Shown here piece after piece: positions 14 to 64,000 of a DNA stretch of 64,000 nucleotides. The stretch's first letter is position 1; the number at the start of each line of letters is the position of its first letter. Both the position numbers and the translations under genes were made by a program. The notes under the pieces are model-generated. The model worked only from the letters and a program-made list of their open reading frames with translations, made no database searches and had not been told where the DNA came from. The DNA is from Candidatus Blackburnbacteria bacterium. Its GTDB lineage: Bacteria; Patescibacteriota; Microgenomatia; UBA8517; UBA10165. The stretch lies in NCBI GenBank assembly GCA_016183565.1, contig JACPEJ010000001.1, forward strand, positions 293,241 to 357,240, read 5' to 3'.

Positions 14-50
14 TTTCCACATCGGGAGTGGAACAGGTTTGCACATCGGG
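14..50. repeat. 37-nt direct repeat, copy A (tttccacatcgggagtggaaCaggtttgcacatcggg); 36/37 identical to 1740..1776
   Basis: Compared the two stretches directly: one C/T mismatch. On the minus strand the repeat encodes MCKP[V/I]PLPMWK plus leader, i.e. the start of an ORF running off the left window edge. Confidence 0.8.
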
Positions 51-1776: not shown

Positions 1777-1783
1777 AGGTGAG

Positions 1784-1854
1784 TTCCGGGACAGGGAGTT
1801 GAACCCCAATTTCCGCTTCCAGAGAGCGGCGTCCGACCATTAGACGATCCCGGA
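1784..1854 (-). tRNA. tRNA-Gln (anticodon CTG)
   Basis: Reverse complement folds as a cloverleaf. Acceptor TCCGGGA/TCCCGGA; D stem GTCT/GGAC; anticodon stem CCGCT/AGCGG with loop CTCTGGA (U33, CTG, G37); T loop TTCAACT; T stem has two G-U pairs. Plus strand is GC-rich in an AT-rich region. Confidence 0.7.
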
Positions 1855-11126: not shown

Positions 11127-12387
11127 GTTTGTTGGTGATGTATTTTTTACCTTTCAGTTTTTCTGGCAAGTAATTTATTTCAGATTTCTTTTCCCCAGTT
11201 GGGCTGTGGTAATAGTCATAATTTTTGCCGTATCCTAGTTCTTTCATAAGTTTTGTGGGAGTATTTCTTATATGCATGGGTACTGGTAAGTTACCATGCT
11301 GATGGACATCTGCTGCGGCTTGGTTGTATGCCATGTATAAAGCATTTGATTTAGGCGCTTTAGCCAAATAAACAACCGCTTGGGCTAAAATTACATTACA
11401 TTCCGGCATTCCGATTTTGTTGCACGACTCAAAAGCTGTGTTTGTTATCGCAAGTGCTTGAGGATCAGCAAGCCCAATGTCTTCCGCAGCAGCGCGTATA
11501 AGTCTCCGTGCAATATACAGAGGATCTTGTCCTGCTTCTAACATTCGGGCAAGCCAGTAAAGAGCAGCATCCGGGTCGGAACCGCGAATAGATTTGTGCA
11601 ATGCAGAGATTGTGTTGTAGAACTCTTCTCCTTGTAGGTCAAAAGATAGCTGTCTTTTCTGTAAAGCTTGTTCAAGTGTGGTAAGAGAAATTGGAGAACT
11701 GGGGGAAATTTGGACAGAAATTTCAAGGACATTGAGCATAACCCGAGCGTCGCCGTTTGAAGATCCAATTAAAAAGTTGTGTGCGTTTTCTTCGAGGGTA
11801 ACTTCTAGGTGTTTAGTCGCACGACTTAGAATGTTTTCTAAGTCTTCTGTGGAATGCTGATTTAAAACTAAAACACGGGTTCGAGATAAAAGTGGACCAA
11901 TAACTTCAAAGGAGGGGTTTTCTGTTGTTGCCCCAATAAATATCAAGTTTCCTTTTTCAATATGAGGAAGTAATTTATCTTGTTGAGCTTTGTTGAATCT
12001 ATGGATTTCGTCAATGAAAATCAGTGGTGGCTGCAGGACGCTTGTTGGGGAAGTAGGAGAAGAGAGCATTTCTAATTGGGGAGATGGATACCCTCGGACA
12101 GTGGGATGTTGGGGGCGCGGAATCACATTTTCGATTTCCTTGGTTGATGTATTGACCGCTGAGAATTCGTAAAAGGTTGTGCCTAGTTCTTTTGCAATAA
12201 GGCGTGCAAGAGTTGTTTTCCCTGTGCCAGGAGGACCCCAGAAAATTAGGGAAGGGAAACTGCCTGTTTTTTTTGCGTGATTTAGGAGTTTTGAGATGAT
12301 TGCATTTTTGCCTACTAGGTGCTCTTGGCCTGCATACTCGGAAAGAGTTTTTGGACGTAGTTGTTCTGCTAGGGGTGCTTGTGTCAT
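11107..12387 (-). CDS. rarA: Replication-associated recombination protein A (RarA/MgsA AAA+ ATPase)
   Basis: Walker [10 protein letters not shown], Walker [16 protein letters not shown], conserved C-terminal MgsA domains. About 30-aa Pro/Ser/Thr-rich insertion between Walker A and Walker B. Confidence 0.9.
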
Positions 12388-29790: not shown

Positions 29791-30648
29791 GTGAGAATGC
29801 TGAAACTTTTTAGGGCGACAATAATAAGTGGAATATTATTTTTTTTGATGGTTTCTCCTGCTTTTGCTGCTTTCGCCATCAGCGGTGTACCTGCAAGTAT
29901 AACTTCTGAGCAGGAGTTCCAGGTTACGGTTTCACTATCCATTAGCGGTTCTGCTGGTAACGTCTACTACTTGAGAGCTGCCTTTGCTCATCTGGACACC
30001 CCGAGTTCATATTTTGGTTACACAAAGGATAATGTCGGTGCTTGGTACAATGGAACACCATCGATCGATCACACAAAGTTTTACCAAGTTACAATGGACT
30101 CTTCAGGAACTTGGAATGGAACTGTTTCAGTTAAACCGGATTCACAAAGTTCTGCTTTCAAAGGTTCTGGAGATTATACACTTAAGGTGGGGAGGTATAC
30201 GGCGGCAGGTAGTGGTCCAACTTGGTCTGATGATTCGGTAACCATAACGATCTCTGCACCACCCACTTCTACTCCTACACCAACATCTACCCCGACGCCT
30301 ACTTCCGGGCCTACGTCAACTCCTACTCCGACTAATACTCCCACCCCTACGATGGGAAGTTTGGCGACTCCGACGCCTACTCGGGTGCCTACGAAAAAAC
30401 CGACTCCTACTCCGACTAAAGAATCCGTTGAGGAAGAGGACGGAGAAGTCTTTGTACTTGGTGCTCAAGACGTAAGTGCTTCTGTGACATCTACGCCGGA
30501 AGTAGTGGTTGAGGCGACAACTTCTGCGCAAGGAAAGAATTGGAAAACTCCTGTGTTTGCTGGTGTTTTGATAGTTGCTGGTGTTTCTCTTATTGGAATT
30601 TCTGCTTATTCCTTCCTTGCGAAGGGTAAAACTGGTAGAATTATGTGA
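29791..30648 (+). CDS. Secreted/cell-surface protein with signal peptide, Pro/Thr-rich repeat linker and C-terminal TM anchor
   Basis: Signal peptide ending PAFAAFA. (PTxTPT)n linker encoded by imperfect 18-nt repeats. C-terminal hydrophobic helix plus KGKTGR. Confidence 0.55.
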   Translation: MRMLKLFRATIISGILFFLMVSPAFAAFAISGVPASITSEQEFQVTVSLSISGSAGNVYYLRAAFAHLDTPSSYFGYTKDNVGAWYNGTPSIDHTKFYQVTMDSSGTWNGTVSVKPDSQSSAFKGSGDYTLKVGRYTAAGSGPTWSDDSVTITISAPPTSTPTPTSTPTPTSGPTSTPTPTNTPTPTMGSLATPTPTRVPTKKPTPTPTKESVEEEDGEVFVLGAQDVSASVTSTPEVVVEATTSAQGKNWKTPVFAGVLIVAGVSLIGISAYSFLAKGKTGRIM

Positions 30649-31061
30649 GTATGAAGCATGTGGTGTATTGGGTGCCGGTTTTTGTTTGGGCCGGCGTTAT
30701 TTTTTTCTTTTCATCTTTGCAGGTGGAGATTTCTCCTGAGTTTGATTTGCAAGATTTTTTGGTTAAGAAGACTGCTCACATTATTGAATATGCAATTCTT
30801 TTTACACTTATCTATAGAGCTTTAATCAATGCGGCTGGTTTTACTGTTAGCAAGTCATTCAAGGTTGCATTTATACTTATTTTTCTTTATGCAATAAGTG
30901 ATGAGTATCATCAATCGTTTACTCCAGGGAGAACTCCAAGCATACGAGATGTTGGTTTTGACAGTTCAGGGGCTGTTCTTGCGTGGATAGGATTATGGAA
31001 GTATTTACCAAAAGCGCCCAAGAAACTTTTGAGTTGGGCAAGAACTTTGCAGCTTCTTTAA
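30645..31061 (+). CDS. VanZ-family membrane protein
   Basis: 138 aa; conserved DEYHQSFTPGR and D.GFD..G motifs of the VanZ-like family. Confidence 0.6.
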   Translation: MSMKHVVYWVPVFVWAGVIFFFSSLQVEISPEFDLQDFLVKKTAHIIEYAILFTLIYRALINAAGFTVSKSFKVAFILIFLYAISDEYHQSFTPGRTPSIRDVGFDSSGAVLAWIGLWKYLPKAPKKLLSWARTLQLL

Positions 31062-31459
31062 AAGGCGGGGAGGTAGTAGCTCTTGTGGGAGATTTAGGGA
31101 GCGGTAAGACTACATTTGTTCAAGGTCTTGCTCGTGGTTTAGGAATAAAAGAGAGAATTTTGAGCCCCACTTTTATTTTGATGCGCCAGTACGATATAAA
31201 AACCAAAAATCAAAACAAAAATGCTTCCTTCGGAAGGGCAAAACTTAAAAATTTGTACCATATTGACTTGTACCGATTGGTTGGGAATATTGAGCAAGAA
31301 TATAGAAGTCTTGGGTTGGAAGAAATTGTAGGGGAGAAGGAAAATATAGTTGTGATTGAGTGGGCGGAGAAGGTGAGGGGGTTGCTGCCTGCTGATACGA
31401 TTTGGATTAGGTTTGGGATTGTGGGTGAGGATGGCAGAAAGATTATTATTAAGCGATAA
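30983..31459 (+). CDS. tsaE: tRNA t6A37 threonylcarbamoyl-adenosine biosynthesis ATPase TsaE (YjeE) with about 14-aa inserted segment
   Basis: Walker A GDLGSGKTTF, SPTFILM, LYHIDLYRL motifs. Inserted segment DIKTKNQNKNASFGRAKLKN is encoded by the repeat element 31197..31254. Confidence 0.8.
   Translation: MDRIMEVFTKSAQETFELGKNFAASLKGGEVVALVGDLGSGKTTFVQGLARGLGIKERILSPTFILMRQYDIKTKNQNKNASFGRAKLKNLYHIDLYRLVGNIEQEYRSLGLEEIVGEKENIVVIEWAEKVRGLLPADTIWIRFGIVGEDGRKIIIKR
31197..31254. repeat. Repeat element copy 1: 22-nt hairpin core TGCTTCCTTCGGAAGGGCAAAA flanked by degenerate CAAAA(A)T heptamers, inside tsaE
   Basis: Core 31222..31243 is identical to 38519..38540. Stem CTTCC/GGAAG. Confidence 0.7.
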
Positions 31460-31460
31460 C

Positions 31461-31500
31461 GCTATGGAGCTATAGAGCTATGAGGCTATGAAGCTATATA
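31461..31500. repeat. Tandem 8-nt repeat (GCTATRRR x5) at the tsaE/tsaB junction, overlapping the tsaB start codon
   Basis: gctatgga gctataga gctatgag gctatgaa gctatata. The ATG of tsaB (31488) lies inside the 4th unit. Confidence 0.7.
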
Positions 31501-31799
31501 TAGATACAAGCAATTCTGAAGAGATTGTTGTGGGTGTAGATCATGAGCTTATTCACGACACGGCTCGAGAGCAGAGAGCGCAAAGGCTTTTGGGTTTGAT
31601 AAGAGAAGAACTAGAAAAAAGGAATTTGGGGTTAGAGGATGTAACTGAGATAAAAGTTAATACTGGCCCAGGTTCTTTTACAGGTCTTAGAGTTGGTGTG
31701 GCAGTTGCTAATTCCCTAGGGTGGTCTTTGGGAGTGCCTGTTAACGATAAAGATATCAGTGGGGATGGTCCAATAGAGCCGCGATACGCAAACACTTAA
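31488..31799 (+). CDS. tsaB: TsaB (YeaZ) homolog, N-terminal domain only (103 aa)
   Basis: GPGSFTGLRVGVAVANSLGWSLGVPV motif of YeaZ/Kae1 family N-lobe. About half the length of E. coli YeaZ. Confidence 0.65.
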   Translation: MKLYIDTSNSEEIVVGVDHELIHDTAREQRAQRLLGLIREELEKRNLGLEDVTEIKVNTGPGSFTGLRVGVAVANSLGWSLGVPVNDKDISGDGPIEPRYANT

Positions 31800-31822
31800 A
31801 GTGTGCTATAACTTATAAAGAG

Positions 31823-32689
31823 ATGTCTTTTTTCGGAACATTAGTCCATCTTTTTATACCGCATTCAAGTAACAACCATAGAGCCAAATTTCTTCATCCT
31901 TTCTTTGTCGGGATTTTTATTTCTGTTTTTGTAGGTAGCCAGTTACTCGCATCATTTTTGCCTTTTTTTGCGCCTATTGTTTTAGGATATTCCTCGAAAA
32001 TAACACCGGAGAAGATAGTTGAGCTTACTAACCAAGAAAGGACAAAAAGTGGCCGGAAGGTTTTGCAGATGGACGATGATCTTAATAGAGCTGCTCTTCT
32101 TAAGGCTGCGGATATGTTCGCGAGGGACTATTGGGCTCACAACTCGCCAGATGGGCAAGAACCTTGGCATTTTTTTATAGAGGCTGATTATCAGTATAAA
32201 TATGCGGGGGAAAATTTAGCTCGGGATTTTACGAAAGATGAAGATGTGGTTCTAGCTTGGATAGCATCTCCTTCTCATAAGGAAAACTTGCTTTCGTCAC
32301 GTTATGAGGATATGGGGATTGCTGTTGTTGAAGGGGAGTTGGGGGGGATAAAGACAACGCTAGTTGTTCAGTTATTTGGAACAAGGATTAATTTGGCGGC
32401 TGTGTTGCCGAGAGTAGAGGCTCAGACTGAGAAATCTTCGGTTGTACCATATTTGAATTTGGGCAGCGAGCAAGTAGCAGGTAAAATTGTGAGTATTTCG
32501 CCGTTTTCTATTAAAAAGTCTTTGGCGATTTTCCTTATTTCTGTTTTTGTTTTTATTTTTGTTTTAGACATACTTCTTATTTCCAGGAACAATGTACAAA
32601 GACGCTCGTCAAGAAGTTTTGCACATCTTTCCTTTTTGGTAGTGATACTTGCAATAGTTTTGCTTTCGCGTTCGGGGGTTATAATGTAG
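31823..32689 (+). CDS. CAP-domain (SCP/PR-1-like) protein with N- and C-terminal TM segments
   Basis: DYWAHNSPDG...YAGENLAR...W..SP.H..N CAP signature motifs. Confidence 0.65.
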   Translation: MSFFGTLVHLFIPHSSNNHRAKFLHPFFVGIFISVFVGSQLLASFLPFFAPIVLGYSSKITPEKIVELTNQERTKSGRKVLQMDDDLNRAALLKAADMFARDYWAHNSPDGQEPWHFFIEADYQYKYAGENLARDFTKDEDVVLAWIASPSHKENLLSSRYEDMGIAVVEGELGGIKTTLVVQLFGTRINLAAVLPRVEAQTEKSSVVPYLNLGSEQVAGKIVSISPFSIKKSLAIFLISVFVFIFVLDILLISRNNVQRRSSRSFAHLSFLVVILAIVLLSRSGVIM

Positions 32690-32702
32690 AAGCTATTTCA
32701 AA

Positions 32703-32966
32703 ATGAAAAATGTTTTTCACGATATTACTCGTCATATGCCCCATTATCTGAGTCTTTTTGGGATAGTTGGGCTGGGGTGCTTAGGGCTTATAGTCTTTTC
32801 TTATGATCAGGGTTTTCGAATGGCGGTGACTGTTGCCTTGGGTGCGGCCTTTGTTGCTTGGGGGGTGGTTCATCATTGGTTGCACGATGACTTGCATTTT
32901 AAGATTGTACTTGAATACCTTTTTACAGCGATCTTGGGAGTTATTGTTCTTCTTTCGCTCATTTGA
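32703..32966 (+). CDS. Small hypothetical membrane protein (3 TM)
   Basis: 87-aa hydrophobic ORF. Confidence 0.3.
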   Translation: MKNVFHDITRHMPHYLSLFGIVGLGCLGLIVFSYDQGFRMAVTVALGAAFVAWGVVHHWLHDDLHFKIVLEYLFTAILGVIVLLSLI

Positions 32967-33001
32967 AAGGAGATGTGAAGTAGGCGATTTAGCTTCGAAA
33001 T

Positions 33002-33529
33002 ATGCTATACTACTCTTATCTTAATATGGGTGGTGATACGGGTGAAAAATTTATTAGTCCTACCTTGGGTGAGTTATCGATAAGTGAAGTTGTTAATGAG
33101 GTCTGCAAGTTTGTAGGTCTTGATTGCTATGCTTTCTACCGTCTTATTATAGGTACTGACTCTCAAACCAGAAAATCAAACAGCGAGGCAGAGATTGATT
33201 TTGTTACTGCAATTGTTATTCATAGACGAGGGAGCGGAGGCCGTTATTTTTGGATACGAGAAAGACAGAGGAAACACTACGTGCTAAGGCAAAAGATATA
33301 TACCGAGACTGCCAAGTCGCTTGCGCTTGCCGAGGAACTTGTGCCTTTGATAAGAAGTAAGATACCTCCGGGTGTCTATGATTTGGAAATTCATATAGAC
33401 GTAGGGACTGTGGGGCCGACGAGGGAGATGATAAAAGAGGTTGTGGGAATGGTTACTGGTAGTGGTTATACTGCAAAAACAAAACCTGAGTCATATGGGG
33501 CTTCATCTGTTGCGGATAGACATACATGA
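33002..33529 (+). CDS. DUF458/YkuK-like RNase-H-fold protein
   Basis: IGTDSQ....A.VIHRRG.GG..F pattern. Confidence 0.45.
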   Translation: MLYYSYLNMGGDTGEKFISPTLGELSISEVVNEVCKFVGLDCYAFYRLIIGTDSQTRKSNSEAEIDFVTAIVIHRRGSGGRYFWIRERQRKHYVLRQKIYTETAKSLALAEELVPLIRSKIPPGVYDLEIHIDVGTVGPTREMIKEVVGMVTGSGYTAKTKPESYGASSVADRHT

Positions 33530-33537
33530 TGAGTTAG

Positions 33538-34245
33538 CTATTTTAGGAGGTCTGGGCGGTTTTGACGAGTTCGTTCGATTGAAGCGCTCTTTTTCCACCC
33601 CTCAATTTTTTTGTGGTTCCCTGACAGAAGAGTTTCTGGTACTTTCCACCCTTTAAAATCTTCAGGTCTTGTGTACTGTGGATACTCCAGTAAACCACTC
33701 GCTTTGCTCGGGACTGTTTTCTGCGAAAATAAATTTTCAGTTAATCCAGAAAATGACTCGAACTGTGTGGCCTCGACTTTTGCAAGAACCCCAGGGATTA
33801 ACCTGACTACTGCGTCGACGATTACCATTGCGGGGAGTTCTCCGCCTGTTAGAACATAGTCTCCTATTGAAATTTCTTCGTCTATCAGGTGTTCGCGTAC
33901 TCTGTGATCGACTGTTTCATAGTGACCTGCGATAAGGATTAGGTGGTCAAGTTGTGCAAACCCTCTTGCTTTTTCCTGGTTAAAAACTTTTCCACCGGGA
34001 TCAAGTAGAATTGTTTTTCGTTTTGCCTTTTTCGTTTTGCGTTTTAGCTCTGTGAGAGCTTTATATAAGGGTTCTACCATTAAGACCATGCCAACTCCAC
34101 CTCCGTAGGGTTTGTCGTCCACTGTTTTGTGTCGACCTTTAGCCCAATCTCGTAGATTGTGGATATTGATTTCCACTAGTGACCTGTCCTGCGCTCGCCG
34201 GATAATACTTTCCCTGAACGGACCCTCAAACATTTCAGGAAACAA
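33538..34245 (-). CDS. trmD: tRNA (guanine37-N1)-methyltransferase TrmD
   Basis: SPOUT knot motifs (DPGGK, ILIAGHYETVDHRV, TGGELPAMVIVDAVVRLIPGVL). True N-terminus extends about 8 codons upstream (in-frame ...YIDILTLFPEMF, non-ATG start). Confidence 0.9.
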   Translation of the reverse strand: MFPEMFEGPFRESIIRRAQDRSLVEINIHNLRDWAKGRHKTVDDKPYGGGVGMVLMVEPLYKALTELKRKTKKAKRKTILLDPGGKVFNQEKARGFAQLDHLILIAGHYETVDHRVREHLIDEEISIGDYVLTGGELPAMVIVDAVVRLIPGVLAKVEATQFESFSGLTENLFSQKTVPSKASGLLEYPQYTRPEDFKGWKVPETLLSGNHKKIEGWKKSASIERTRQNRPDLLK

Positions 34246-34334
34246 TGTTAGGATATCTATATATTGCGTATGGTATATTTTACCATTACCGTTGGTACTT
34301 GTGATACATTTGGTGTCTGTGTTACCTTTCTATC

Positions 34335-35291
34335 ATGCGACTTGTGATAGTTATTCCCACTTATAACGAGAAAGAGAATATAGTAAACCTTTTGCACAGG
34401 ATCAATTTAACTTTTCGTGATATACGCGGTTGGACGTTGCGGGTTTTGATTGTTGATGACAATTCTCCTGATGGAACTGCGGATGCTGTGAGAGATGTTA
34501 TGAGACGTAATAGAAAAGTGTTTTTGTTATCTCGGAGTAAAAAAACTGGTTTAGGAGGGGCATACTTTTCGGGTATGGAAAGGGCGTTTAAGGAGATGGG
34601 TGCTGATGTAGTTGGGATAATGGACGCTGATTTATCGCACAACCCTGCCTATATTCCCGCTTTCTTAGGGAAGATACAGAGAGGATATGAGTTTGTGGTT
34701 GGGGCTCGGTATGTTCGAGGGGGTTCGATTCCTTCTGATTGGCCGTTATATCGGAAATTTCTTTCGGTATTTGGTAATACTATGGTTTCGGTTTTTCTTG
34801 GTAAGACTACACTAACTGATTGGACGTCCGGATATCGCTTTTTTAATAAAGACGTGTATGTGAAGGTGAGGCCTGAGATAATTGAAGATCGTGCGGAGTA
34901 TAGGGGGTATACGTTTAACATTTCTTTTGCGTATCATGCTGTGAGTGAGGGTTTTAAGATTGGCCAGGTTCCTATTAAGTTTTCCGATAGGAAAAAGGGG
35001 AAATCGAAACTTGGGTTGGAGTATCTTTTCCACACCCCTATTTTTTTATTGAAGACTCGACTTTCTATATTGAGAAAAGGTATAGTGAAAAGATCGAGAG
35101 TTGTAATTAGAGTTTGTTCCAGAACTCAATCTGTGGGGCCTGTCGGGAGCTCGTCCTCGGCCCGTATATCCTCGTCCGCCAGCTGGCGGACTGCGGGCGC
35201 TCGGCGGGACTCCTCGTTCGAGTCTGAGCCTGAGGGCTCATCCCTCAGAGTCGAAGACCTCCGCTCCCGACACCCACTTAGAAATTTTTAG
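34335..35291 (+). CDS. GT2 polyprenol-phosphate mannose/glucose synthase (DPM1/Ppm1-like), 3' end replaced by a GC-rich element; probably truncated
   Basis: VIVIPTYNEKENI...VDDNSPDGT...DAD motifs. Collinear with 35293..36519 to about residue 255, then a low-complexity Ser/Arg/Ala tail encoded by the GC-rich element. Lacks the paralog's GtrA-like TM domain. Confidence 0.75.
   Translation: MRLVIVIPTYNEKENIVNLLHRINLTFRDIRGWTLRVLIVDDNSPDGTADAVRDVMRRNRKVFLLSRSKKTGLGGAYFSGMERAFKEMGADVVGIMDADLSHNPAYIPAFLGKIQRGYEFVVGARYVRGGSIPSDWPLYRKFLSVFGNTMVSVFLGKTTLTDWTSGYRFFNKDVYVKVRPEIIEDRAEYRGYTFNISFAYHAVSEGFKIGQVPIKFSDRKKGKSKLGLEYLFHTPIFLLKTRLSILRKGIVKRSRVVIRVCSRTQSVGPVGSSSSARISSSASWRTAGARRDSSFESEPEGSSLRVEDLRSRHPLRNF
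35133..35278. other. GC-rich (~65%) palindrome-dense structured element; candidate ncRNA or small inserted element
   Basis: 10-bp closing helix TGTCGGGAGC (35141..35150) / GCTCCCGACA (35263..35272). Internal hairpins: perfect 16-nt palindrome TCCGCCAGCTGGCGGA (35175..35190), GACTC/GAGTC (35208..35224), CTGAGGG/CCCTCAG (35230..35248). Translation in the host ORF frame is low-complexity. Confidence 0.45.
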
Positions 35292-35292
35292 T

Positions 35293-36519
35293 ATGAAAAT
35301 TGTTGTTATTATTCCAACTTACAATGAGCGAGAAAATATTGGCCGGATGCTTGATATTTTGGTGAAAGATGAATTTTCCAAGATTAAAAACCATAAGATG
35401 GAGGTGTTGGTAGTTGATGGTCAATCCCCTGATGGTACCTCGGAGGTAGTTAATGAGAAGATGAAGAAATATAAGCAGGTTAATCTTCTTTTGACTAATA
35501 AGGGTGGTTTGGGTGCTGATTATGCGAAGGGAATGAAATATGCTATTGAGAAAATGAAAGCGGATGCGGTGTTTGAGTTTGATGCGGATTTTCAGCATGA
35601 CCCAGGGGATATAAAGCGGTTAGTTGCGGCAATGGATCTTGGTGCTGATTATGTTATTGGATCTCGGTATATTCCCGGGGGGGCAATACCGAAAGAGTGG
35701 GGGATGCATAGAAAGTTCTTAAGTTTTTTTGGAAGTCTTTTTGCGCGAGTAGTTCTTCTTATGCTTAATGTTCATGATATGACTTCTGGTTTTAAGTTAA
35801 CCAAGACTGAGTTTTTGAAGAAGGTGGATTTGGATCATTTGTTGTCAAGGTATTATGCGTACAAGATTCATATATTGCACGATGTAGTGAAACTTGGGGC
35901 CAAGATTGTGGAGGTGCCGATTGTTTTTTACGAAAGGAAAGAAGGTTCAAGCAAGATAAGTCGGAAGGATTTGTTTGACTCTTTTCGTGTGGTGATTTTG
36001 TTGAGGCTGCGTGATTCTAAACGTTTTATCAAGTTTGGCATAGTTGGGACGGTCGGTTATATGTTGAATGCTCTTGGGTTAGAGTTTTTCTCTGGGGTGA
36101 AGGTTACCCAGGATTTGGCAAATTTCTTTCTTGAGTGGAAGGGAAGTTGGCCTCTTAGTATAGCTTCTGAGCCTTCGGCTTGGGCGGCGGCTTTTGCCGC
36201 GGAGGTAGCTATATTGTCTAATTTTATCCTGAACAATTATTGGACGTTTGCTTCTAAGAGAATTACAAATCCTTTGCGTTTCCTTTGGAAGTTTAGCCAT
36301 TTTAATTTGACGTCGGCGGGTGCTGTTGTGATACAGTTTTTGGTTGTTGGTTTAGCTGTTAGTTTGTTTGGTGACACTCCACTTGTGCGTCAGCTTTCTT
36401 TGGTTGTTGCAGTAGGGGTGTTTATCGTTCCGTATAACTATACGATGTACAATGTTTTTATCTGGAAAACATGGAAAGTTCCAGGGCTTCGGTGGCTACA
36501 GAATCGCAGAGTGGATTAG
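35293..36519 (+). CDS. GT2 polyprenol-phosphate mannose synthase (Ppm1-like) with C-terminal GtrA-like TM domain
   Basis: 408 aa. VVIIPTYNERENI...VVDGQSPDGT...DADFQHDP GT2 core plus 4 C-terminal TMs. Tandem paralog of 34335. Confidence 0.8.
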   Translation: MKIVVIIPTYNERENIGRMLDILVKDEFSKIKNHKMEVLVVDGQSPDGTSEVVNEKMKKYKQVNLLLTNKGGLGADYAKGMKYAIEKMKADAVFEFDADFQHDPGDIKRLVAAMDLGADYVIGSRYIPGGAIPKEWGMHRKFLSFFGSLFARVVLLMLNVHDMTSGFKLTKTEFLKKVDLDHLLSRYYAYKIHILHDVVKLGAKIVEVPIVFYERKEGSSKISRKDLFDSFRVVILLRLRDSKRFIKFGIVGTVGYMLNALGLEFFSGVKVTQDLANFFLEWKGSWPLSIASEPSAWAAAFAAEVAILSNFILNNYWTFASKRITNPLRFLWKFSHFNLTSAGAVVIQFLVVGLAVSLFGDTPLVRQLSLVVAVGVFIVPYNYTMYNVFIWKTWKVPGLRWLQNRRVD

Positions 36520-37697
36520 AGCAGGGGTCCCCAGTCTGCAATTGGAGTTACGTTGTTTGTTATAAAAGTAATAGAAAAAAGATAGATTGGTAGGAGTAGT
36601 AGTAATGAGATCCACTTGAATTCTGGGCTTTCTAGGACTTTGTGAAATGCTATAAAAAGGAATGGTATTATTGGTAGACTGTAACGTGCTATGTCTCTGT
36701 GGGATACAAATAAGAGAGATAGGAAGAATATGCCTACAAAGGATGCTATAGCGATTTGTTTCTGTTTAATTAAATAAACTACTCCTACTGCTGCGAATAG
36801 ATAGATCCATATGACTTCTTCCAGCCAAAAAGTTCCCACCCAAGTTTGTTTGGGGTTGAAAATTTGAAAAGGTGGAAACATTAGGTGGACATTGTCGCCC
36901 GAGTTGAAATAGGCAAAAAAGTTGCCATATTGTTTGCCGTACCAAAAATAAAGTCCAACCAGACTTAAGGGAATTAAGAGAAGTGGGTAGGATTTCCACG
37001 GTAGTTTTTTGACCCATGCTGCTGCATTAGTTAGAGCTAGTTGATTCCAGGAGGAAACTATTATGGCTACAGTGTAAGAAAAGAATAAAAGTATTGCTGG
37101 AGGTTTAGTCCATTGGGCTAGAATTCCAAAAAGTGCGGCGAGCCAGAAGTTGTTTTTTCTAAAAAAGAAAATAGACGCCATGATTACCAGTAGGAACAGT
37201 GGTTCAGGAGAGCCGATGGAGCGGGTGATTAGCCAACGTGCAGGAAAAAATGAAAACAAAGTTGCTAACCATAAGCTGTGTTTTTGTAGTCCAATGTCTT
37301 CTAGTAAGAAGTAGAACATCCAGACTGCTAATATTGATGTTACTACTGTTACTGTGATCATTGCATATGGGTAACCCATAAAAGGAAAGGCTGTGGTGAC
37401 ACTTCTTATTAAGAGAGGGAAAAGAGGATAGTGTGCTGAGTAATAGATAGAGGGAAGGGGAAAAGAGAAGTTATTTTCGATTTGTTCAGGATTATAGAGG
37501 GTTTTTGCGGCAACTATATAGTAGGGTCCGTCGTAATTGCGAATTATAGTTGCCATACCCTCTTGGTTTAGTTTAATTCCCCAAATGGTAGGAATGTTTA
37601 ATATAAAGGGTAACCACAGAGCCATAATTCCTGCCAAGGATACGATAGCTAAGAGTAGGGGATTTTGGAATTTGATAAAAATTTCAGAAATCTTCAT
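36516..37697 (-). CDS. Polytopic membrane protein (about 11 TM), probable GT-C-type glycosyltransferase
   Basis: 393 aa, highly hydrophobic, in a glycosyltransferase context. No definitive motif. Confidence 0.4.
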   Translation of the reverse strand: MKISEIFIKFQNPLLLAIVSLAGIMALWLPFILNIPTIWGIKLNQEGMATIIRNYDGPYYIVAAKTLYNPEQIENNFSFPLPSIYYSAHYPLFPLLIRSVTTAFPFMGYPYAMITVTVVTSILAVWMFYFLLEDIGLQKHSLWLATLFSFFPARWLITRSIGSPEPLFLLVIMASIFFFRKNNFWLAALFGILAQWTKPPAILLFFSYTVAIIVSSWNQLALTNAAAWVKKLPWKSYPLLLIPLSLVGLYFWYGKQYGNFFAYFNSGDNVHLMFPPFQIFNPKQTWVGTFWLEEVIWIYLFAAVGVVYLIKQKQIAIASFVGIFFLSLLFVSHRDIARYSLPIIPFLFIAFHKVLESPEFKWISLLLLLPIYLFSITFITNNVTPIADWGPLL

Positions 37698-37771
37698 ACT
37701 AGCTAAGTATACAACAGCACGGAGAGTTTGTGATGGCCTGACGGCTTTTTGTGTGGTATGATTTTTGAAGT

Positions 37772-38515
37772 ATGGCTCAGAAACTTACGTTGAGTGTTAT
37801 TTTGCCTGTTTATAATGAGGAGAAGGATGTACCTAGAAATGTTCCTATTCTCTATAAGTATCTGAAAGAGAATTTTACTCAATATTCTTGGGAACTTATC
37901 ATTGCTGATAATGGTCCTTCTAAAGATAGAACTCCGGAAATCTCGAAAGAACTAACTAAGAACTATAGGAGTTTGTTTTATATTTGTATTCCACGGCCAG
38001 GGCGTGGGGGTGCGTTAAAAGAAGTTTGGCAAAAGCGAAAAAGTGACTACCTTTGCTATATGGATGTTGATTTGTCTTCAGATCTTTCCTTTTTGTCTCA
38101 ACTTATTTCCTTTCTAGAGAATGGTGCTGATATTGCTATCGGTTCACGTCTTAAGAGGGGGGCTAAGGTGTATGGTCGGACACTCTTACGTGAGATAATG
38201 TCCAGAGGCTATAATATCTTGATCCGAACCTTCTTTTGGACAAGCTTCTGCGATGCTCAGTGTGGATTCAAAGCGATTAGAAAAGAAGCAGCGATGAAGC
38301 TTTTACCGTATGTGGAGGATAAAGGTTGGTTTTTTGATTCAGAACTTTTGATAACTGGCGAGAAAGCGGGGTTTAAAATTAAAGAAGTTCCTATAGTTTG
38401 GCGTGATGATCCTGCTTCAACTGTTAAGGTTGCAAAAACTGCTTGGGGGGATATTAAGGGACTAGCAAGGCTTTTTATCACCAGGCCATGGAAAAAAATT
38501 CAAAATTCAAAATAA
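37772..38515 (+). CDS. GT2 glycosyltransferase (DPM/DPG-synthase-like); last 7 codons and stop lie in heptamer repeats
   Basis: ILPVYNEEKD...IIADNGPSKD...DVDLS motifs. C-terminus ...PWKKIQNSK* is encoded by AAAATTC repeats. Confidence 0.85.
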   Translation: MAQKLTLSVILPVYNEEKDVPRNVPILYKYLKENFTQYSWELIIADNGPSKDRTPEISKELTKNYRSLFYICIPRPGRGGALKEVWQKRKSDYLCYMDVDLSSDLSFLSQLISFLENGADIAIGSRLKRGAKVYGRTLLREIMSRGYNILIRTFFWTSFCDAQCGFKAIRKEAAMKLLPYVEDKGWFFDSELLITGEKAGFKIKEVPIVWRDDPASTVKVAKTAWGDIKGLARLFITRPWKKIQNSK

Positions 38516-40074
38516 AATTGCTTCCTTCGGAAGGGCAAAATTCAAAATTAAAATTCAAAATTCAAAATTTTCAGAAGTGGATGTCAACAAACAGATATGA
38601 ATTTGCTCTTCTAGTTTTTATCCTCATTCTGGCCACCCTTTTTAGACTTTGGAGAATAGATGAGTACTTGCCATTTTTAGGTGACGAGGGGCGAGACGTA
38701 AGGGTAGTAAGACGTTTTGTGACGGATTTTGATTTGATGTTTATAGGGCCGAGAACTTCGATTGGTGATATGTACCTTGGCCCCTTGTTTTACTATCTTA
38801 TTGCCCCTGGGCTTTTGTTTGCTAATTTCTCACCAGCTGGCCCAGCTACCACTGTAGCACTTTTTGGTGTTGCAACGGTTTTTTTGATTTGGCGGGTTGC
38901 TCGCGAATGGTTTGGTAGGGAAGCTGCAATTATTTCATCTTTTCTTTTTGCGATTTCTCCCTTGGTGGTAAATCTATCGAAGCATTCCTGGAATCCGAAC
39001 ATCATGCCCTTTTTTGCTCTTTTGTCAGTTTATAGTATTTGGAGGGTGTGGAGTAAAGGAGAGTATCTGTGGTTTTTAGTACTTGGAGGAGCGTACGCTT
39101 TTGTTCTTCAGTCTCACTATCTGGGTTTGCTTCTGGGACCTGTGTTAGGGCTGTCGGGGTTGTTAGGGTGGTTGGGAGCAAGAAGGGCACGCACAACAAA
39201 AAGTTTTCTTGTTTTCTTGTTTTCAGGTTCCTTAGTTTTTATCGTTTTAATGTCCCCTTTGTTTATTTTTGATTCCAAGCATGGTTGGCATAATACGCAG
39301 GCTATAGCCACTTTTTTTACCAAGAGACAAGAAACTGTTTCTGTCAAGCCGTGGAATGCTGTACCTCTAACATGGCCTATTTGGAAAGATAAGGTTGTTA
39401 ATGATCTTTTGACAGCTGGTAATCAAAACCTGGCTTTATATGTAGCGTTAGGTTTGTTGCTTGCTTGTCTTTGTGTGTTTCTCGAAAGCAGGAGAAAGCT
39501 TTCCTCTCTTGTACCTTTTGGTCTGACTGTTTTTTGGATATTAGTGGGTCTTTTGGGTTTGGGGTCTCTTAAACAAAATGTTTATAGCCATTATTTTGGA
39601 TTTATGTTTCCGGCGGTATTTCTTTTGATTGGGGCTATTACCGGGTTTTTTTGGAAAGGCAGGACGAGATGGGTGGTTGTACTTGCTATAGCTGTGTTGA
39701 TAACGATCAACTTACAAAAAAATCCCCTTTTCCTGCCTCCCCAGAGGCAGATGCAGAGAGTTCAAGAAATTGATAAAAAAATTCTCAAAGAAGCGGATAG
39801 CGAGCCCTTTAATTTTGCTTTAATTGCTAAGAGAAATTATGAGGAAGGTTATCTTTATTTCTTTGAATTATGGAATTCGCCGGTTCGGGAAATCAACGCT
39901 CAGAATACTCGTGATACTTTAACTGAGCAACTTTTTGTTGTTTGCGAAGACCCTGTTTGTGAGCCGATTAATAATGCTAAAGCTGAAATTGCGAATTTTG
40001 GTTGGGCGAAAATAGAAAGTGAAGAGCAAATTGGGGGTGTAAAATTGTACAAACTAGTTCACACAAAACAATGA
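38488..40074 (+). CDS. GT-C glycosyltransferase, GT39/ArnT-like
   Basis: FLGDEGRD...IGP.TSIGD...GPLFYYLIAPG motif and 11+ TMs. The ATG at 38488 adds a Lys-rich 31-aa leader from the repeat element; the native start may be the Met at ~38581 (MSTNRYEF...). Confidence 0.75.
   Translation: MEKNSKFKIKLLPSEGQNSKLKFKIQNFQKWMSTNRYEFALLVFILILATLFRLWRIDEYLPFLGDEGRDVRVVRRFVTDFDLMFIGPRTSIGDMYLGPLFYYLIAPGLLFANFSPAGPATTVALFGVATVFLIWRVAREWFGREAAIISSFLFAISPLVVNLSKHSWNPNIMPFFALLSVYSIWRVWSKGEYLWFLVLGGAYAFVLQSHYLGLLLGPVLGLSGLLGWLGARRARTTKSFLVFLFSGSLVFIVLMSPLFIFDSKHGWHNTQAIATFFTKRQETVSVKPWNAVPLTWPIWKDKVVNDLLTAGNQNLALYVALGLLLACLCVFLESRRKLSSLVPFGLTVFWILVGLLGLGSLKQNVYSHYFGFMFPAVFLLIGAITGFFWKGRTRWVVVLAIAVLITINLQKNPLFLPPQRQMQRVQEIDKKILKEADSEPFNFALIAKRNYEEGYLYFFELWNSPVREINAQNTRDTLTEQLFVVCEDPVCEPINNAKAEIANFGWAKIESEEQIGGVKLYKLVHTKQ
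38494..38572. repeat. Repeat element copy 2: AAAATTC-type heptamer repeats on both sides of the hairpin core TGCTTCCTTCGGAAGGGCAAAA (38519..38540)
   Basis: Seen in sequence. Spans the stop of GT2 37772..38515 and the first ~28 codons of ORF 38488..40074. Confidence 0.75.
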
Positions 40075-63602: not shown

Positions 63603-64000
63603 TGAAGGAACTATCTGTAGTAATTGTTAATTATAATACTGGTGAGTTGTTGGGAAAATGTGTTGATTCAGTCAAAAAAACAGCAGGGTTCGCTGAAATT
63701 ATAGTTGTTGATAATGCATCGACTGATGGATCGGGCCGCGCTTTGCGGAATTTTCAATTTTCAATTTTCAATTTTCAATTTATAGAAAACAAAAAGAACT
63801 TGGGGTTTGCAAGGGCTGTAAATCAGGGAATAAAAAAAGCGAAGGGGGAATATATTCTGCTTCTCAACCCTGATACTGTTGTTGAGCCAAAGGCGATTGA
63901 TAATATGCTTCAGTTTGCAAAGCTGGAACCTTCTGTGGGTGCAATAGGTGCTAGGTTGTTGAATCCAGACGGTTCGGTTCAGGGGTCTGTTATGCACTTT
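63602..64000 (+). CDS. GT2 glycosyltransferase (3'-truncated by window edge) containing an in-frame heptanucleotide repeat tract
   Basis: ATG at 63602 overlaps the upstream TAA (TAATG). MKELSVVIVNYNTGELL...VVDNASTDGS...ENKKNLGFARAVNQG. Not in the ORF track because there is no stop within the window. Confidence 0.8.
   Translation, partial: MKELSVVIVNYNTGELLGKCVDSVKKTAGFAEIIVVDNASTDGSGRALRNFQFSIFNFQFIENKKNLGFARAVNQGIKKAKGEYILLLNPDTVVEPKAIDNMLQFAKLEPSVGAIGARLLNPDGSVQGSVMHF
63740..63772. repeat. Heptanucleotide tandem repeat (AATTTTC)x4 plus a partial unit inside the GT2 coding sequence
   Basis: Encodes NFQFSIFNFQF between the DGS and ENKKNLGFA motifs. Unit length is not a multiple of 3. Confidence 0.85.

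What the first reader, a model, noticed from the sequence alone, without database searches (positions are those of the whole stretch)
31197..38572. Hairpin-core mini-element with heptamer flanks, found twice inside coding DNA in different reading frames (RPE/MITE-like)
The 22-mer TGCTTCCTTCGGAAGGGCAAAA (stem CTTCC/GGAAG) occurs identically at 31222..31243 inside tsaE and at 38519..38540 at the GT2/GT-C gene junction. Both copies are flanked by A-rich heptamer repeats (CAAAAAT / AAAATTC). In tsaE the core reads aat-gct-tcc-ttc-gga-agg-gca-aaa (NASFGRAK). At 38.5 kb it reads ttg-ctt-cct-tcg-gaa-ggg-caa-aat (LLPSEGQN). So the conservation is at the DNA level, not the protein level. In tsaE the element lies exactly where E. 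coli YjeE has only ~6 residues between the PTYTLV and YHFDLYRL motifs, giving a ~14-aa Lys/Asn-rich insertion that keeps the frame. This resembles Rickettsia palindromic elements that colonise ORFs in-frame, and it could be a previously undescribed selfish mini-element in this lineage.
Basis: seen in the sequence. Interest (0 to 1): 0.7.

Follow-up and report, generated by a model that had tools for sequence, protein, structure and literature searches.

The report
Tiny hairpin repeat living inside genes
A 21-base GC hairpin sitting in A-rich seven-base repeats occurs twice in this Candidatus Blackburnbacteria window, and similar hairpins in the same kind of repeat turn up in metagenome contigs inside essential genes such as rpoB, read in all three frames.

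Summary
The 22-mer is exact at 31222-31243 and 38519-38540, with none expected by chance. Copy 1 adds 7 codons to an older A-rich heptamer tract in a disordered TsaE surface loop. Copy 2, with its (AAAATTC)n arrays, is a ~75-nt lineage-specific insertion between GT2 and GT-C, which overlap, abut or are fused in relatives. It is probably intergenic or an N-terminal extension.

The exact core was found nowhere else I could search, and the rest of this genome was out of reach. A metagenome scan for the architecture gave 39 GC-hairpin cores in (AAAATTC) tracts. All have the A-rich strand as the open strand, and 35 lie in long ORFs (LepA, TopA, enolase, RecJ, MurB, RpoB, RpoC). One core type is read in all three frames. 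One 10.6-kb contig holds four identical cores with differing flanks. Empty orthologous sites show clean 21-nt insertions without target duplication.

The RPE-like idea is upheld and widened; the MITE idea (terminal inverted repeats, target duplication) is not. The closest known things are cyanobacterial small dispersed repeats, Rickettsia palindromic elements and yeast mitochondrial GC clusters. How the element spreads, and its copy number in this genome, remain unknown.

The parts
30983..31459 (+). tsaE ORF (158 aa, PF02367), host gene of copy 1
   Evidence: ORF. Homologues carry PF02367 and are named TsaE. AF2 model has mean pLDDT 87.7.
31198..31218 (+). Left A-rich heptamer tract of copy 1 (AAAAACC AAAAATC AAAACAA). 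It encodes KTKNQNK.
   Evidence: (D3, D7). L004 has an equivalent tract, AAAAATCAAAGATCAAAAATCAAAGATCAAAAATT, without any hairpin.
31219..31239 (+). Copy 1 core block: 21 nt, equal to 3 heptamer units and 7 codons (AAATGCT TCCTTCG GAAGGGC). The hairpin CTTCC-TTC-GGAAG is at 31224-31236. The exact 22-mer is 31222-31243.
   Evidence: The TsaE loop is 7 aa longer than in L004. Residues 72-89 form a low-confidence loop between strands 67-71 and 90-95.
31240..31253 (+). Right A-rich tract of copy 1 (AAAACTT AAAAATT). It encodes KLKN and overlaps the conserved CPR TsaE motif x-F/L-K-N before YH.
37772..38515 (+). GT2 glycosyltransferase ORF. Its last codons (..KKIQNSK) and its stop TAA (38513-38515) are supplied by the left array of copy 2.
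   Evidence: Logan annotation gives PF00535. Orthologues end ..TRPWKKVAK* (L006) and ..TRPWKKLKNEWKV* (L004).
38495..38514 (+). Left (AAAATTC)n array of copy 2 (AAAATTC AAAATTC AAAATA..)
38515..38535 (+). Copy 2 core block: 21 nt between the last left unit and the first right unit, so the arrays stay in phase (38495+42=38537). The hairpin is at 38521-38533. The exact 22-mer is 38519-38540.
   Evidence: Phase was read directly from the sequence.
38536..38572 (+). Right (CAAAATT)x5 array of copy 2
   Evidence: TRF score 61.
38581..40074 (+). GT-C (PMT_2 / GT39-like) gene from the start favoured by orthologues (MSTNRYEF..). The database gene call starts at 38488 and reads through the element as MEKNSKFKIKLLPSEGQNSKLKFKIQNFQKW.
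   Evidence: (P0121, 528 aa).

Best explanation
The 22-mer is the core of a very small dispersed palindromic repeat. It is a 21-nt GC-rich block (3 heptamer units, 7 codons) containing a short hairpin, lodged in phase inside A-rich heptanucleotide tracts of the AAAATTC type.

It belongs to a class that I could not find described for CPR bacteria. In that class, GC-hairpin cores, mostly of 21 or 30 nt, sit in such tracts with the A-rich strand as the sense strand, mostly inside conserved genes.

How it persists (shown or directly readable):
- (AAAATTC)n has no stop codon in any forward frame, and the window core and the frame-translated core A have none either.
- Most core blocks are a multiple of three in length. 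A copy therefore adds 7-10 residues to a tolerant loop whichever frame it lands in.
- The reverse orientation, (GAATTTT)n, puts TGA in every frame, and it is not seen.

How it spreads (inferred):
- Cores appear as clean insertions at a heptamer-unit boundary, with no target-site duplication.
- Cores stay identical within a genome while their flanks differ.
- I think the most likely route is copying of the hairpin into A-rich heptamer tracts. This could be done by a hairpin-recognising single-strand DNA activity like that of IS200/IS605 or REP-RAYT. Alternatively it could happen by ectopic gene conversion or template switching between tracts.
- The tracts themselves are slippage-prone repeats seeded by Lys/Phe/Ile/Asn codons (YKIK, KFKN).

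In this window, one copy extended a disordered surface loop of TsaE. The other split the tightly coupled GT2/GT-C gene pair and supplied the new GT2 stop codon.
For: Window:
- The 22-mer is exact twice, with 0 expected by chance.
- The core block is 21 nt and in phase with the flanking heptamers in both copies.
- tsaE is 21 nt longer than in L004, which has the A-rich tract but no hairpin.
- The GT2/GT-C junction is an ATGA overlap in L006, abutting in L004 and fused in L085. The window has ~75 extra nt there.
- The TsaE insert is a low-confidence loop in the AF2 model.

Family:
- The scan AAAATTCAAAATN{8,38}SSSAAAATTCAAAATT found 71 metagenome loci.
- 39 of the hits have GC-rich cores. All 39 have their longest open frame on the A-rich strand, and 35 lie in open spans of 178-1118 codons.
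- Hosts confirmed by Pfam are LepA, TopA, RecJ, MurB, TatD, a TrxB-like reductase, GT4, RpoB and RpoC.
- The core CCTGCCT-N7-AGGCAGG is read as CLAGRQA, LPRRQAG or PASPAGR in different genes.
- L155 has four identical 21-nt cores in 10.6 kb: two in rpoB in different frames, one in rpoC and one just after the rpoC stop. Their flanks differ from copy to copy. The window shows the same pattern.
- Enolase L145 reads KKKFKI[PASPAGR]QNSKFKIPVP. Its closest homologues without the core read KKTFKIQNSKFKIPVP, exactly 7 aa shorter.
- L167 carries the identical core at the same codon with non-array flanks, and L166 is the empty site.
- Most cores fold better than shuffles.
- The window's hairpin module recurs with a changed outer pair: ATTCC-TTC-GGAAT in L108 (twice, in two frames of one gene) and GATTCC-TTC-GGAATC in the tsaE loop of L087, in another frame.
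Against: - Only two copies occur in 64 kb. The exact 20-mer core has no match in the genome, metagenome or viral collections.
- The rest of this MAG could not be read, so multi-copy status in this genome is unproven.
- The window hairpin is weak: 5 bp, about -5 kcal/mol, z about 0 with flanks and p=0.06 for the core alone.
- No transposase or HUH nuclease is encoded in the window (Logan annotations).
- The scan demanded AAAATTC flanks, so it cannot show how common the architecture is overall.
- The taxonomy of most host contigs was not determined.
- A six-frame peptide search for further copies found only GT-C itself and missed the known TsaE copy, so it is uninformative.
Confidence: 0.72

Rival explanations
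1. A one-off local event. A single ectopic gene conversion or template switch between two pre-existing A-rich heptamer microsatellites copied a ~22-nt segment from one locus to the other, 7.3 kb away. On this reading there is no element family in this genome.
For: - Only two copies occur in the window.
- The core is absent from all searched collections.
- The tsaE tract predates the core (L004).
- Flank similarity of 5-6 of 7 bases per unit is no higher than L004's core-less tract shows against AAAATTC, so only the core is demonstrably shared.
Against: - The same architecture recurs in many unrelated contigs. Up to four identical cores occur per 10.6 kb, with copy-specific flanks.
- The window's hairpin module recurs in L108 and L087.
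- The whole array at the GT2/GT-C junction is absent from L004 and L006, so that tract was not pre-existing there.
Confidence: 0.15
2. A selected nucleic-acid signal rather than selfish DNA, namely an orientation-specific terminator of antisense transcription. On the antisense RNA the GC hairpin is followed by a U-rich tail (AAUUUUGAAUUUU). On the sense RNA it is followed by A-rich sequence and is read through. This does not exclude a mobile origin.
For: - Both window copies are picked up as terminator-like sites on the minus strand only (CTTCCGAAGGAAG + CAATTTTATT / CATTTTTGTT).
- All 39 family members have the A-rich strand as the sense strand.
- Stems are kept while loops vary in core A.
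- Identical cores occur in enolases only 78% identical.
Against: - The number of terminator-like sites in the region is not above shuffles (7 vs 6.7).
- The window stem is only 5 bp, and the T-tract starts after CA/AA and is interrupted.
- The orientation bias is already explained by TGA in every frame of the reverse strand.
- No transcript data are available.
Confidence: 0.15
3. At the GT2/GT-C junction, copy 2 acts as a -1 programmed frameshift cassette. The ribosome slips on A_AAA_TAA (38509-38515) at the GT2 stop, with the hairpin 5 nt downstream. The result is a GT2-linker-GT-C fusion like the fused gene in a relative.
For: - The long GT-C frame, open from 38488, is the -1 frame of GT2.
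- The hairpin at 38521-38533 starts 5 nt after the stop codon.
- L085 encodes a natural GT2-GT-C fusion of 731 aa.
Against: - The hairpin is weak.
- The same core in tsaE has no useful -1 frame, which hits a stop straight away.
- The -1 relation of the two frames is inherited from the ancestral ATGA overlap plus a 75-nt insertion, which is a multiple of 3.
- The open frame follows from the stop-free nature of the array.
- There is no experimental support.
Confidence: 0.05
4. Ordinary low-complexity coding sequence that looks similar by chance or through codon and composition bias.
For: The flanks are Lys/Asn/Ile/Gln/Phe codons, common in a 40% GC genome. The conserved motifs YKIK and KFKN make A-rich heptamer-like DNA on their own.
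Against: - A 22-nt exact GC-rich match is not expected by chance (0 in 100 shuffles).
- The two copies are read in different frames.
- Both sites are empty in the closest relatives found.
Confidence: 0.01

Closest known systems
Small dispersed repeats (SDR1-8) of Nostocaceae cyanobacteria (Elhai et al. 2008, Genome Res 18:1484). The paper is not held in the library. Its content is recalled from memory; it is cited in PMC3116915 and PMC5861425.
   Same: As I recall the paper, these are very small (21-27 nt) dispersed repeats with a hairpin supported by compensatory changes. They are often embedded within tandem heptameric repeats, lack classical transposon features and have no known mobilising protein. 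Here the core block is 21 nt, lies in phase inside heptamer tracts, and is identical between copies while the flanks differ.
   Different: - The host phylum is CPR/Patescibacteria rather than Nostocaceae. PMC5861425 states that SDRs were not found outside Nostocaceae.
- The heptamer is A-rich (AAAATTC), not the cyanobacterial STRR type.
- The copies recovered here sit mostly inside conserved ORFs and are translated in any frame.
- Sequence relatedness to the SDR families could not be tested.
Rickettsia palindromic elements (RPE)
   Same: Palindromic repeats that insert into unrelated protein-coding genes in frame and are tolerated as extra peptide segments (PMC10969869). Here the host genes are tsaE, rpoB, rpoC, lepA, topA and eno.
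   Different: - RPEs are ~100-150 bp, and each family encodes a conserved peptide. These cores are 21-30 nt, and one core is read in all three frames.
- These are embedded in heptanucleotide tracts.
- The bacterial lineage is different.
GC clusters of yeast mitochondrial genomes (e.g. GC42, GC18)
   Same: Short GC-rich hairpin elements scattered in an AT-rich genome. Changes concentrate in loops rather than stems, units merge into double hairpins, and flanking tracts are co-converted (PMC4478555). Here core A keeps its stem while the loop varies. Double-hairpin 30-nt cores exist. Orthologous sites carry the tract with or without the core.
   Different: GC clusters are mostly intergenic and carry putative target-site duplications (AG/TAG). 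No duplication is seen here, and the copies recovered by the scan are mostly intragenic.
REP / REPIN elements mobilised by RAYT (IS200/IS605-like Y1 transposases)
   Same: Both are 20-40 nt GC-rich imperfect palindromes with many identical copies per genome, no terminal inverted repeats and no target duplication. A hairpin-recognising single-strand DNA mechanism would fit the clean boundaries and the single orientation.
   Different: REPs are extragenic and carry a GTAG or CGTC head (PMC3733652). The cores here start GCTT.. or CCTG.. and lie inside genes. No RAYT-like gene is present in the window.
Heptanucleotide simple sequence repeats (over-represented in many bacteria; cyanobacterial STRR)
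   Same: The flanks are period-7 tandem arrays. Period 7 is the commonest tandem-repeat period that is not a multiple of 3 in the 1.32 Mb of related loci: 121 arrays, against 40 of period 6 and 56 of period 8. Over-representation of heptameric repeats and a polymerase-slippage explanation are described in PMC4692102.
   Different: A simple repeat does not explain an identical 22-nt GC hairpin shared by two arrays 7.3 kb apart.

Membership tests
Rickettsia palindromic elements (RPE) | Inserted in frame inside protein-coding genes and tolerated | tested here: met
   Copy 1 lies in frame in tsaE, in a low-confidence loop. Family members lie in LepA, TopA, enolase, RpoB and RpoC.
Rickettsia palindromic elements (RPE) | Length ~100-150 bp, with a family-specific conserved peptide in a fixed frame | tested here: not met
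   The core is 21-22 nt and the whole similarity spans 53 nt. The same core is read in different frames.
MITE | Terminal inverted repeats | tested here: not met
   The flanks are direct A-rich heptamer repeats on both sides. The only inverted repeat is the central 5-bp stem.
MITE | Target-site duplication | tested here: not met
   Filled versus empty sites differ by exactly 21 nt with no duplicated residues: enolase L145 vs P0125/P0129, L167 vs L166, window tsaE vs L004.
REP / REPIN-RAYT | 20-40 nt GC-rich imperfect palindrome in multiple copies | tested here: inconclusive
   Size and hairpin fit. There are only 2 copies in this window. L155 has 4 identical copies of another core. The genome-wide count is not obtainable.
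REP / REPIN-RAYT | Conserved GTAG or CGTC tetranucleotide at the foot of the hairpin | tested here: not met
   The core is TGCTTCC..GGAAGGGCA, and core A is CCTGCCT..AGGCAGG. Neither has a GTAG or CGTC head. The criterion is from PMC3733652.
REP / REPIN-RAYT | Extragenic location | tested here: not met
   Copy 1 is intragenic. 35 of 39 family members lie in long open frames.
REP / REPIN-RAYT | A RAYT / Y1 HUH transposase gene in the genome | not testable with these tools
   None is present in the 64-kb window (Pfam; Logan Pfam lists). The rest of the MAG could not be fetched.
Cyanobacterial SDR elements | Core of about 21-27 nt that can form a hairpin | tested here: met
   The block is 21 nt with a 5-bp stem. 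Family cores of 21 nt have 7-bp stems.
Cyanobacterial SDR elements | Embedded within tandem heptameric repeats | tested here: met
   TRF finds period-7 arrays on both sides of copy 2, with the core in phase. Degenerate heptamers flank copy 1.
Cyanobacterial SDR elements | Compensatory changes that maintain the hairpin | tested here: inconclusive
   The outer pair is C-G in the window and A-T in L108 and L087, on the same TTCC-TTC-GGAA module. That is only three sequences. Core A stems do not vary.
Cyanobacterial SDR elements | Sequence relatedness to SDR1-8, and occurrence in Nostocaceae | not testable with these tools
The hosts here are CPR bacteria.
Intrinsic terminator (antisense strand) | GC-rich stem followed directly by a T-run | tested here: inconclusive
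   Both copies match the simple consensus on the minus strand, but such sites are not enriched over shuffles. The stem is only 5 bp.
-1 programmed ribosomal frameshift site | Slippery heptamer, 5-9 nt spacer, downstream structure, and an open -1 frame leading to a functional product | tested here: inconclusive
   A_AAA_TAA, a 5-nt spacer, the hairpin and the open -1 frame into GT-C are all present. A fused homologue exists. The structure is weak, and frameshifting itself cannot be tested here.

The most novel reading that the evidence does not exclude
CPR/Patescibacteria harbour a widespread, undescribed class of the smallest known in-frame mobile elements. These are 21- or 30-nt GC hairpins that insert, without target duplication, at unit boundaries of A-rich heptanucleotide tracts. 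They are designed to be stop-free in all three sense frames, so they can colonise even rpoB, rpoC, lepA, topA, eno and tsaE. They would be mobilised by an unknown hairpin-specific activity. They may also be co-opted as orientation-specific antisense terminators or, at gene junctions, as frameshift or coupling modules.
Probability: 0.4. Interest if true: 0.85.

Novelty: new variant of a known kind. Interest (0 to 1): 0.72.

Why it matters
If the family is what it appears to be, very small palindromic repeats are not confined to Nostocaceae, Rickettsia or fungal mitochondria. They would also shape the proteins of ultra-small CPR bacteria, including core enzymes such as RNA polymerase, enolase, LepA and TsaE.

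- This would explain some of the odd Lys/Asn/Gln/Phe-rich loop insertions and length variation in CPR proteins.
- It would give a marker for recent genome dynamics in lineages thought to be streamlined.
- It would pose a concrete mechanistic question: what copies a 21-nt hairpin into heptamer tracts without any footprint?
- It has practical consequences for annotation. Examples are the GT-C start site here and gene calls that read through the elements.
- It also affects assembly. Both Logan contigs fetched for the upstream gene (L089, L090) end inside the heptamer array at 63.75 kb.

Tried and rejected
1. Exact search for the 20-mer core GCTTCCTTCGGAAGGGCAAA in genome contigs, metagenome contigs and viral contigs gave 0 hits each. 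Copy number outside the window therefore stays unknown.
2. Look-ups of the window's own proteins returned only Logan contigs 100% identical to the window. The NCBI 686-kb contig that carries P0121 could not be fetched. Two look-ups failed on start-codon choice and one more found nothing.
3. A six-frame peptide query of the element against the protein database found only GT-C itself. It missed the known TsaE copy, so the negative result means nothing.
4. Rfam at gathering thresholds found nothing but tRNAs, in the window and in 20 family loci.
5. Folding shows the window hairpin with flanks is no more stable than shuffles. A strong structured RNA is therefore not supported for this copy.
6. A strict scan for perfect stems of 6 bp or more next to lag-7 periodicity in 1.4 Mb of tsaE loci found almost nothing. 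The architecture is rare around tsaE, apart from its loop.
7. A GC-island-in-A-rich-flanks scan of the window found no further element. The hit at 39724-39763 is a protein motif conserved in L006.
8. Viral collections contain neither the architecture nor core A.
9. Shine-Dalgarno inspection could not settle the GT-C start, because this genome shows almost no SD motifs.
10. Literature searches for the sequences themselves, and for in-frame palindromic elements in CPR, found no prior description. The Elhai 2008 paper could not be read.
11. A diversity-generating retroelement was considered from memory. I rejected it because the flank differences are not adenine-specific and the segment is far too short.
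12. MITE and classical REP membership were rejected on tested features; see the membership table.

Full report
**1. Observation**

The 22-mer TGCTTCCTTCGGAAGGGCAAAA occurs exactly at 31222-31243 and 38519-38540 on the + strand. There is no third match even with 3 mismatches, and none is expected in shuffles. The gapless similarity runs for 53 nt at 87% identity (31198-31250 vs 38495-38547).

Copy 2 is flanked by clean period-7 arrays: AAAATTC x2.7 on the left and CAAAATT x5 on the right. Copy 1 is flanked by degenerate A-rich heptamers. The hairpin CTTCC-TTC-GGAAG exists but is weak, at about -5 kcal/mol, and with its flanks it is no better than shuffles. Rfam finds only two tRNAs in the window.

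The two copies are read as NASFGRAK (tsaE) and LLPSEGQN (long GT-C ORF), so they are in different frames.

**2. Source organism**

Logan contigs from six SRR121133xx/4xx runs are 100% identical to the window over 2.5-15 kb, apart from one with a single mismatch. The 528-aa GT-C protein is also in NCBI, as a GT39-family protein of a Candidatus Blackburnbacteria MAG on a 686-kb contig. The closest tsaE locus among the species representatives is Candidatus Blackburnbacteria, L004, at 62% identity. The organism is therefore a Microgenomates-group CPR bacterium.

The window is 40% GC and has almost no Shine-Dalgarno motifs. It encodes only housekeeping and cell-envelope genes and no transposase (Pfam lists).

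**3. Copy 1, in tsaE**

The segment lies between the SPTF and YHxDLYR motifs. In an AlphaFold model (mean pLDDT 87.7), residues 72-89 form an unstructured, low-confidence loop between strands 67-71 and 90-95.

Across TsaE homologues this loop varies from 0 to about 30 extra residues. The SPTF-to-HxDxYR segment is 23-25 aa in the loci whose record titles name non-CPR groups and 38 aa here.

L004 has an A-rich heptamer tract at the same place (AAAAATCAAAGATCAAAAATCAAAGATCAAAAATT) but no hairpin, and its loop is exactly 7 codons shorter. The tract is therefore older than the core. The conserved residues YKIK and KFKN on either side are themselves heptamer-like A-rich DNA.

Other lineages carry other hairpins at this same loop:
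- L084 has a loop of the same length holding a different 10-bp hairpin between GTAAAAAG direct repeats.
- L014 carries CCTGCCTGCCGGCAAGGCAGG.
- L017 and L027 carry CACCTCCGAGG.
- L087 carries GATTCC-TTC-GGAATC. This is the window's own module with a different outer pair, read in another frame.

**4. Copy 2, at the GT2/GT-C junction**

In L006 the two genes overlap by ATGA, in L004 they abut, and in L085 they are fused into one 731-aa ORF. The window has about 75 extra nt (38498-38572), made of array, core and array.

The GT2 stop codon TAA (38513-38515) comes from a variant unit, AAAATAA, of the left array. GT-C orthologues begin where ATG 38581 lies. ATG 38488 arises from the conserved Pro-Trp codons of GT2. 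The core is therefore most likely intergenic, or part of a fortuitous N-terminal extension, although the database gene call (P0121, held from NCBI and Logan) reads through it.

**5. What the two copies share**

In both copies the block between the last left unit and the first right unit is 21 nt. That equals three heptamers or seven codons, and the arrays stay in phase across it. The flanks match at only 5-6 of 7 bases per unit. L004's core-less tsaE tract matches AAAATTC about as well. Only the ~22-nt core is demonstrably shared.

**6. Searches beyond the window**

The exact core was absent from the genome, metagenome and viral collections. I then searched metagenomes for the architecture, using AAAATTCAAAATN{8,38}SSSAAAATTCAAAATT, and obtained 71 loci. 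Of the hits, 39 have a GC-rich core between the arrays.

Main findings from these hits:
- One core type, a 7-bp stem CCTGCCT/AGGCAGG with a variable 7-nt loop (21 nt in all), occurs in at least 15 loci with unrelated outer flanks.
- Other core types, mostly of 21 or 30 nt, recur as well. Most fold better than shuffles.
- All 39 have their longest open frame on the A-rich strand, and 35 lie in open spans of 178-1118 codons.
- Pfam confirms the hosts as LepA, TopA, RecJ, MurB, TatD, a TrxB-like reductase, GT4, RpoB and RpoC.
- The same core is translated as CLAGRQA, LPRRQAG or PASPAGR in different genes, so all three frames are used.
- L155 carries four identical cores within 10.6 kb: two in rpoB in different frames, one in rpoC, and one 18 nt after the rpoC stop. 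Their flanks are AAAATTC, AAAATCC or AAATYCC. This is the window's own pattern of an identical core with divergent flanks.
- L108 carries the window's hairpin module (ATTCC-TTC-GGAAT) as part of a 30-nt double hairpin, twice in one gene and in two frames.
- No viral contig has the architecture, and Rfam has no matching family.

**7. Insertion anatomy**

Enolase L145 is Moranbacteria-like by its homologues. It reads KKKFKI[PASPAGR]QNSKFKIPVP. The closest homologues without the core read either KKTFKIQNSKFKIPVP, a pure heptamer tract exactly 7 aa shorter, or KKTYKIPGKKYELPIP, which looks ancestral.

L167, an enolase 78% identical, has the identical 21-nt core at the same codon with non-array flanks. 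L166 is an empty site.

Together with tsaE versus L004, this shows three things. The insertion is a discrete 21-nt unit. There is no target-site duplication. The same sites are used repeatedly.

**8. Why it is tolerated and why orientation is fixed**

This can be read directly from the sequence. (AAAATTC)n cycles through AAA ATT CAA AAT TCA AAA TTC in every frame and has no stop codon. The window core and core A are also stop-free in all three forward frames. The reverse strand, (GAATTTT)n, contains TGA in every frame. Most core blocks measure a multiple of 3 after array trimming. A sense-oriented copy therefore simply lengthens a loop by 7-10 residues.

**9. Mechanism of spread (inferred)**

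Clean boundaries, no duplication, a hairpin, a sequence-defined target and a single orientation fit a hairpin-recognising single-strand DNA 'peel and paste' activity of the IS200/IS605 or RAYT kind. No such gene is in the window, and the cores lack the GTAG/CGTC head of REPs (PMC3733652).

The alternative is ectopic gene conversion or template switching between heptamer tracts. It is supported by orthologous sites where an ancestral sequence has been replaced by a pure tract of the same length. It also resembles the co-conversion tracts reported around yeast mitochondrial GC clusters (PMC4478555).

The tracts themselves are heptameric simple repeats, a class known to be over-represented in bacteria and attributed to polymerase slippage (PMC4692102). 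Period 7 is also the commonest tandem-repeat period that is not a multiple of 3 in the 1.32 Mb of related loci.

**10. Possible functions (speculative)**

On the antisense strand both window copies match a simple terminator consensus, a hairpin followed by CAATTTTATT or CATTTTTGTT. Such sites are not enriched over shuffles, however.

At the junction, the long GT-C frame is the -1 frame of GT2. The GT2 stop sits in A_AAA_TAA, 5 nt before the hairpin, and a relative has the two genes fused. A frameshift cassette is therefore conceivable but unsupported.

**11. Comparison with known elements**

The closest known kinds are:
- Cyanobacterial small dispersed repeats. As I recall Elhai et al. 2008, these are 21-27 nt hairpins, often within tandem heptameric repeats. 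The paper is not held. PMC5861425 states that they are known only in Nostocaceae.
- Rickettsia palindromic elements, which colonise ORFs in frame but are ~150 bp (PMC10969869).
- Yeast mitochondrial GC clusters.
- REP/REPIN elements.

The element fails the MITE tests, having no terminal inverted repeats and no target duplication. It also fails three REP tests, on the head motif, extragenic location and any RAYT gene in the window. I found no description of such elements in CPR bacteria.

**12. Verdict**

The RPE-like interpretation is upheld in substance, corrected in detail, and widened from 'this lineage' to a broad family.

The main gaps are the copy number of this particular core in its own genome, the taxonomic spread of the family, and the mobilising mechanism.

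I rate it a new variant of a known kind, namely very small palindromic dispersed repeats, with high interest for bacterial mobile-DNA and CPR genomics.

Noticed in passing
window 63749-63781: A perfect (AATTTTC)x4.7 array, the reverse complement of GAAAATT, lies inside a GT2 ORF that starts at 63602 and reads RNFQFSIFNFQF. It replaces a segment of equal length in the paralogue at 55415 (IKLPRIDYHF). Both Logan contigs that reach this point (L089, L090) end inside the array, at window 63775.
   Followed up: partly
window 34013-34060 (minus-strand gene trmD): On the trmD sense strand, a small hairpin (AGCTC-TCACA-GAGCT) is followed by an A-rich heptamer array (AAAACGC AAAACGA AAAAGGC AAAACGA AAAACAA) that encodes LKRKTKKAKRKT. 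This is the same hairpin-plus-tract theme with a different core. There is no obvious net insertion.
   Followed up: partly
L043 10084, 10908, 11531 (Parcubacteria bacterium Gr01-1014_20): A ~45-nt double-hairpin repeat, TTTTTCCTCCGGAGGAGGATCCGCCTTTGGCGGAAGGTTAAAG, lies in frame in the N-terminal part of tsaE (GFSSGGGSAFGGRLK) and in an adjacent 873-aa ORF that I read by eye as polA (IFSSGGGSAFGGGLK). An inverted partial copy in that ORF reads SSKGGSSSGGK. This is an independent case of a hairpin repeat shared between two genes.
   Followed up: partly
L155 979, 2013, 3987, 7168 (same organism as L165): Four identical 21-nt cores, CCTGCCTGTCCGGCAGGCAGG, occur within 10.6 kb. Two are in rpoB in different frames, one is in rpoC, and one lies 18 nt after the rpoC stop. 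Each has its own heptamer type in the flanks.
   Followed up: yes
L052 9200-9290; L160 12303-12390; L026 and L087 tsaE loops: A second heptamer family (TCCGAAA / CGAAATC / AAATACG) flanks the same CCTGCC..GGCAGG core type. It is shared between contigs labelled as different phyla (Margulisiibacteriota, Saccharibacteria, Microgenomates). L026 and L087 share 17-nt and 13-nt identical stretches in the tsaE loop.
   Followed up: partly
L100 and L124: Two unrelated membrane/GT proteins share a longer low-complexity composite (..NF.F.ISNF.SNSN.RISNEKKEINN.KL.NL..NQNSKFLP.RQAGKIQNS) upstream of the hairpin core. This suggests larger composite repeat units.
   Followed up: no
L044 10203-10293 and 11108-11330: The tsaE-loop insert of this contig is an array of GCCAGNA-type heptamers followed by inverted CTGGCAA units. 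The same array sequence (CCAGTGGCCAGAAGCCAG) recurs 0.9 kb downstream, next to an assembly gap of Ns.
   Followed up: no
window 38488-38515 vs L006 18665-18668, L004 ~11460, L085 19512-20480: The GT2 and GT-C genes overlap (ATGA), abut or are fused in relatives. In the window the GT-C frame is the -1 frame of GT2 and stays open through the inserted element.
   Followed up: partly
window 14-50 and 1740-1776: A 37-nt direct repeat at 97% identity (TTTCCACATCGGGAGTGGAAYAGGTTTGCACATCGGG) occurs 1.7 kb apart. The second copy lies immediately next to tRNA-Gln (1783-1854, minus strand). It may mark the ends of a small integrated segment that contains a transglutaminase-like ORF.
   Followed up: no
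window, start-codon contexts of ~35 ORFs: Hardly any Shine-Dalgarno motifs are present. Several starts have TATAAT-like boxes 6-10 nt upstream (for example 11107-12387, 13505, 31823, 37772), which suggests leaderless or SD-independent initiation.
   Followed up: no
window 30241-30411: Degenerate 12-nt/45-nt repeats encode a Thr/Pro-rich (TPTPTSTPTPT) linker in a 285-aa secreted or membrane-anchored protein just upstream of the VanZ-like gene and tsaE.
   Followed up: no
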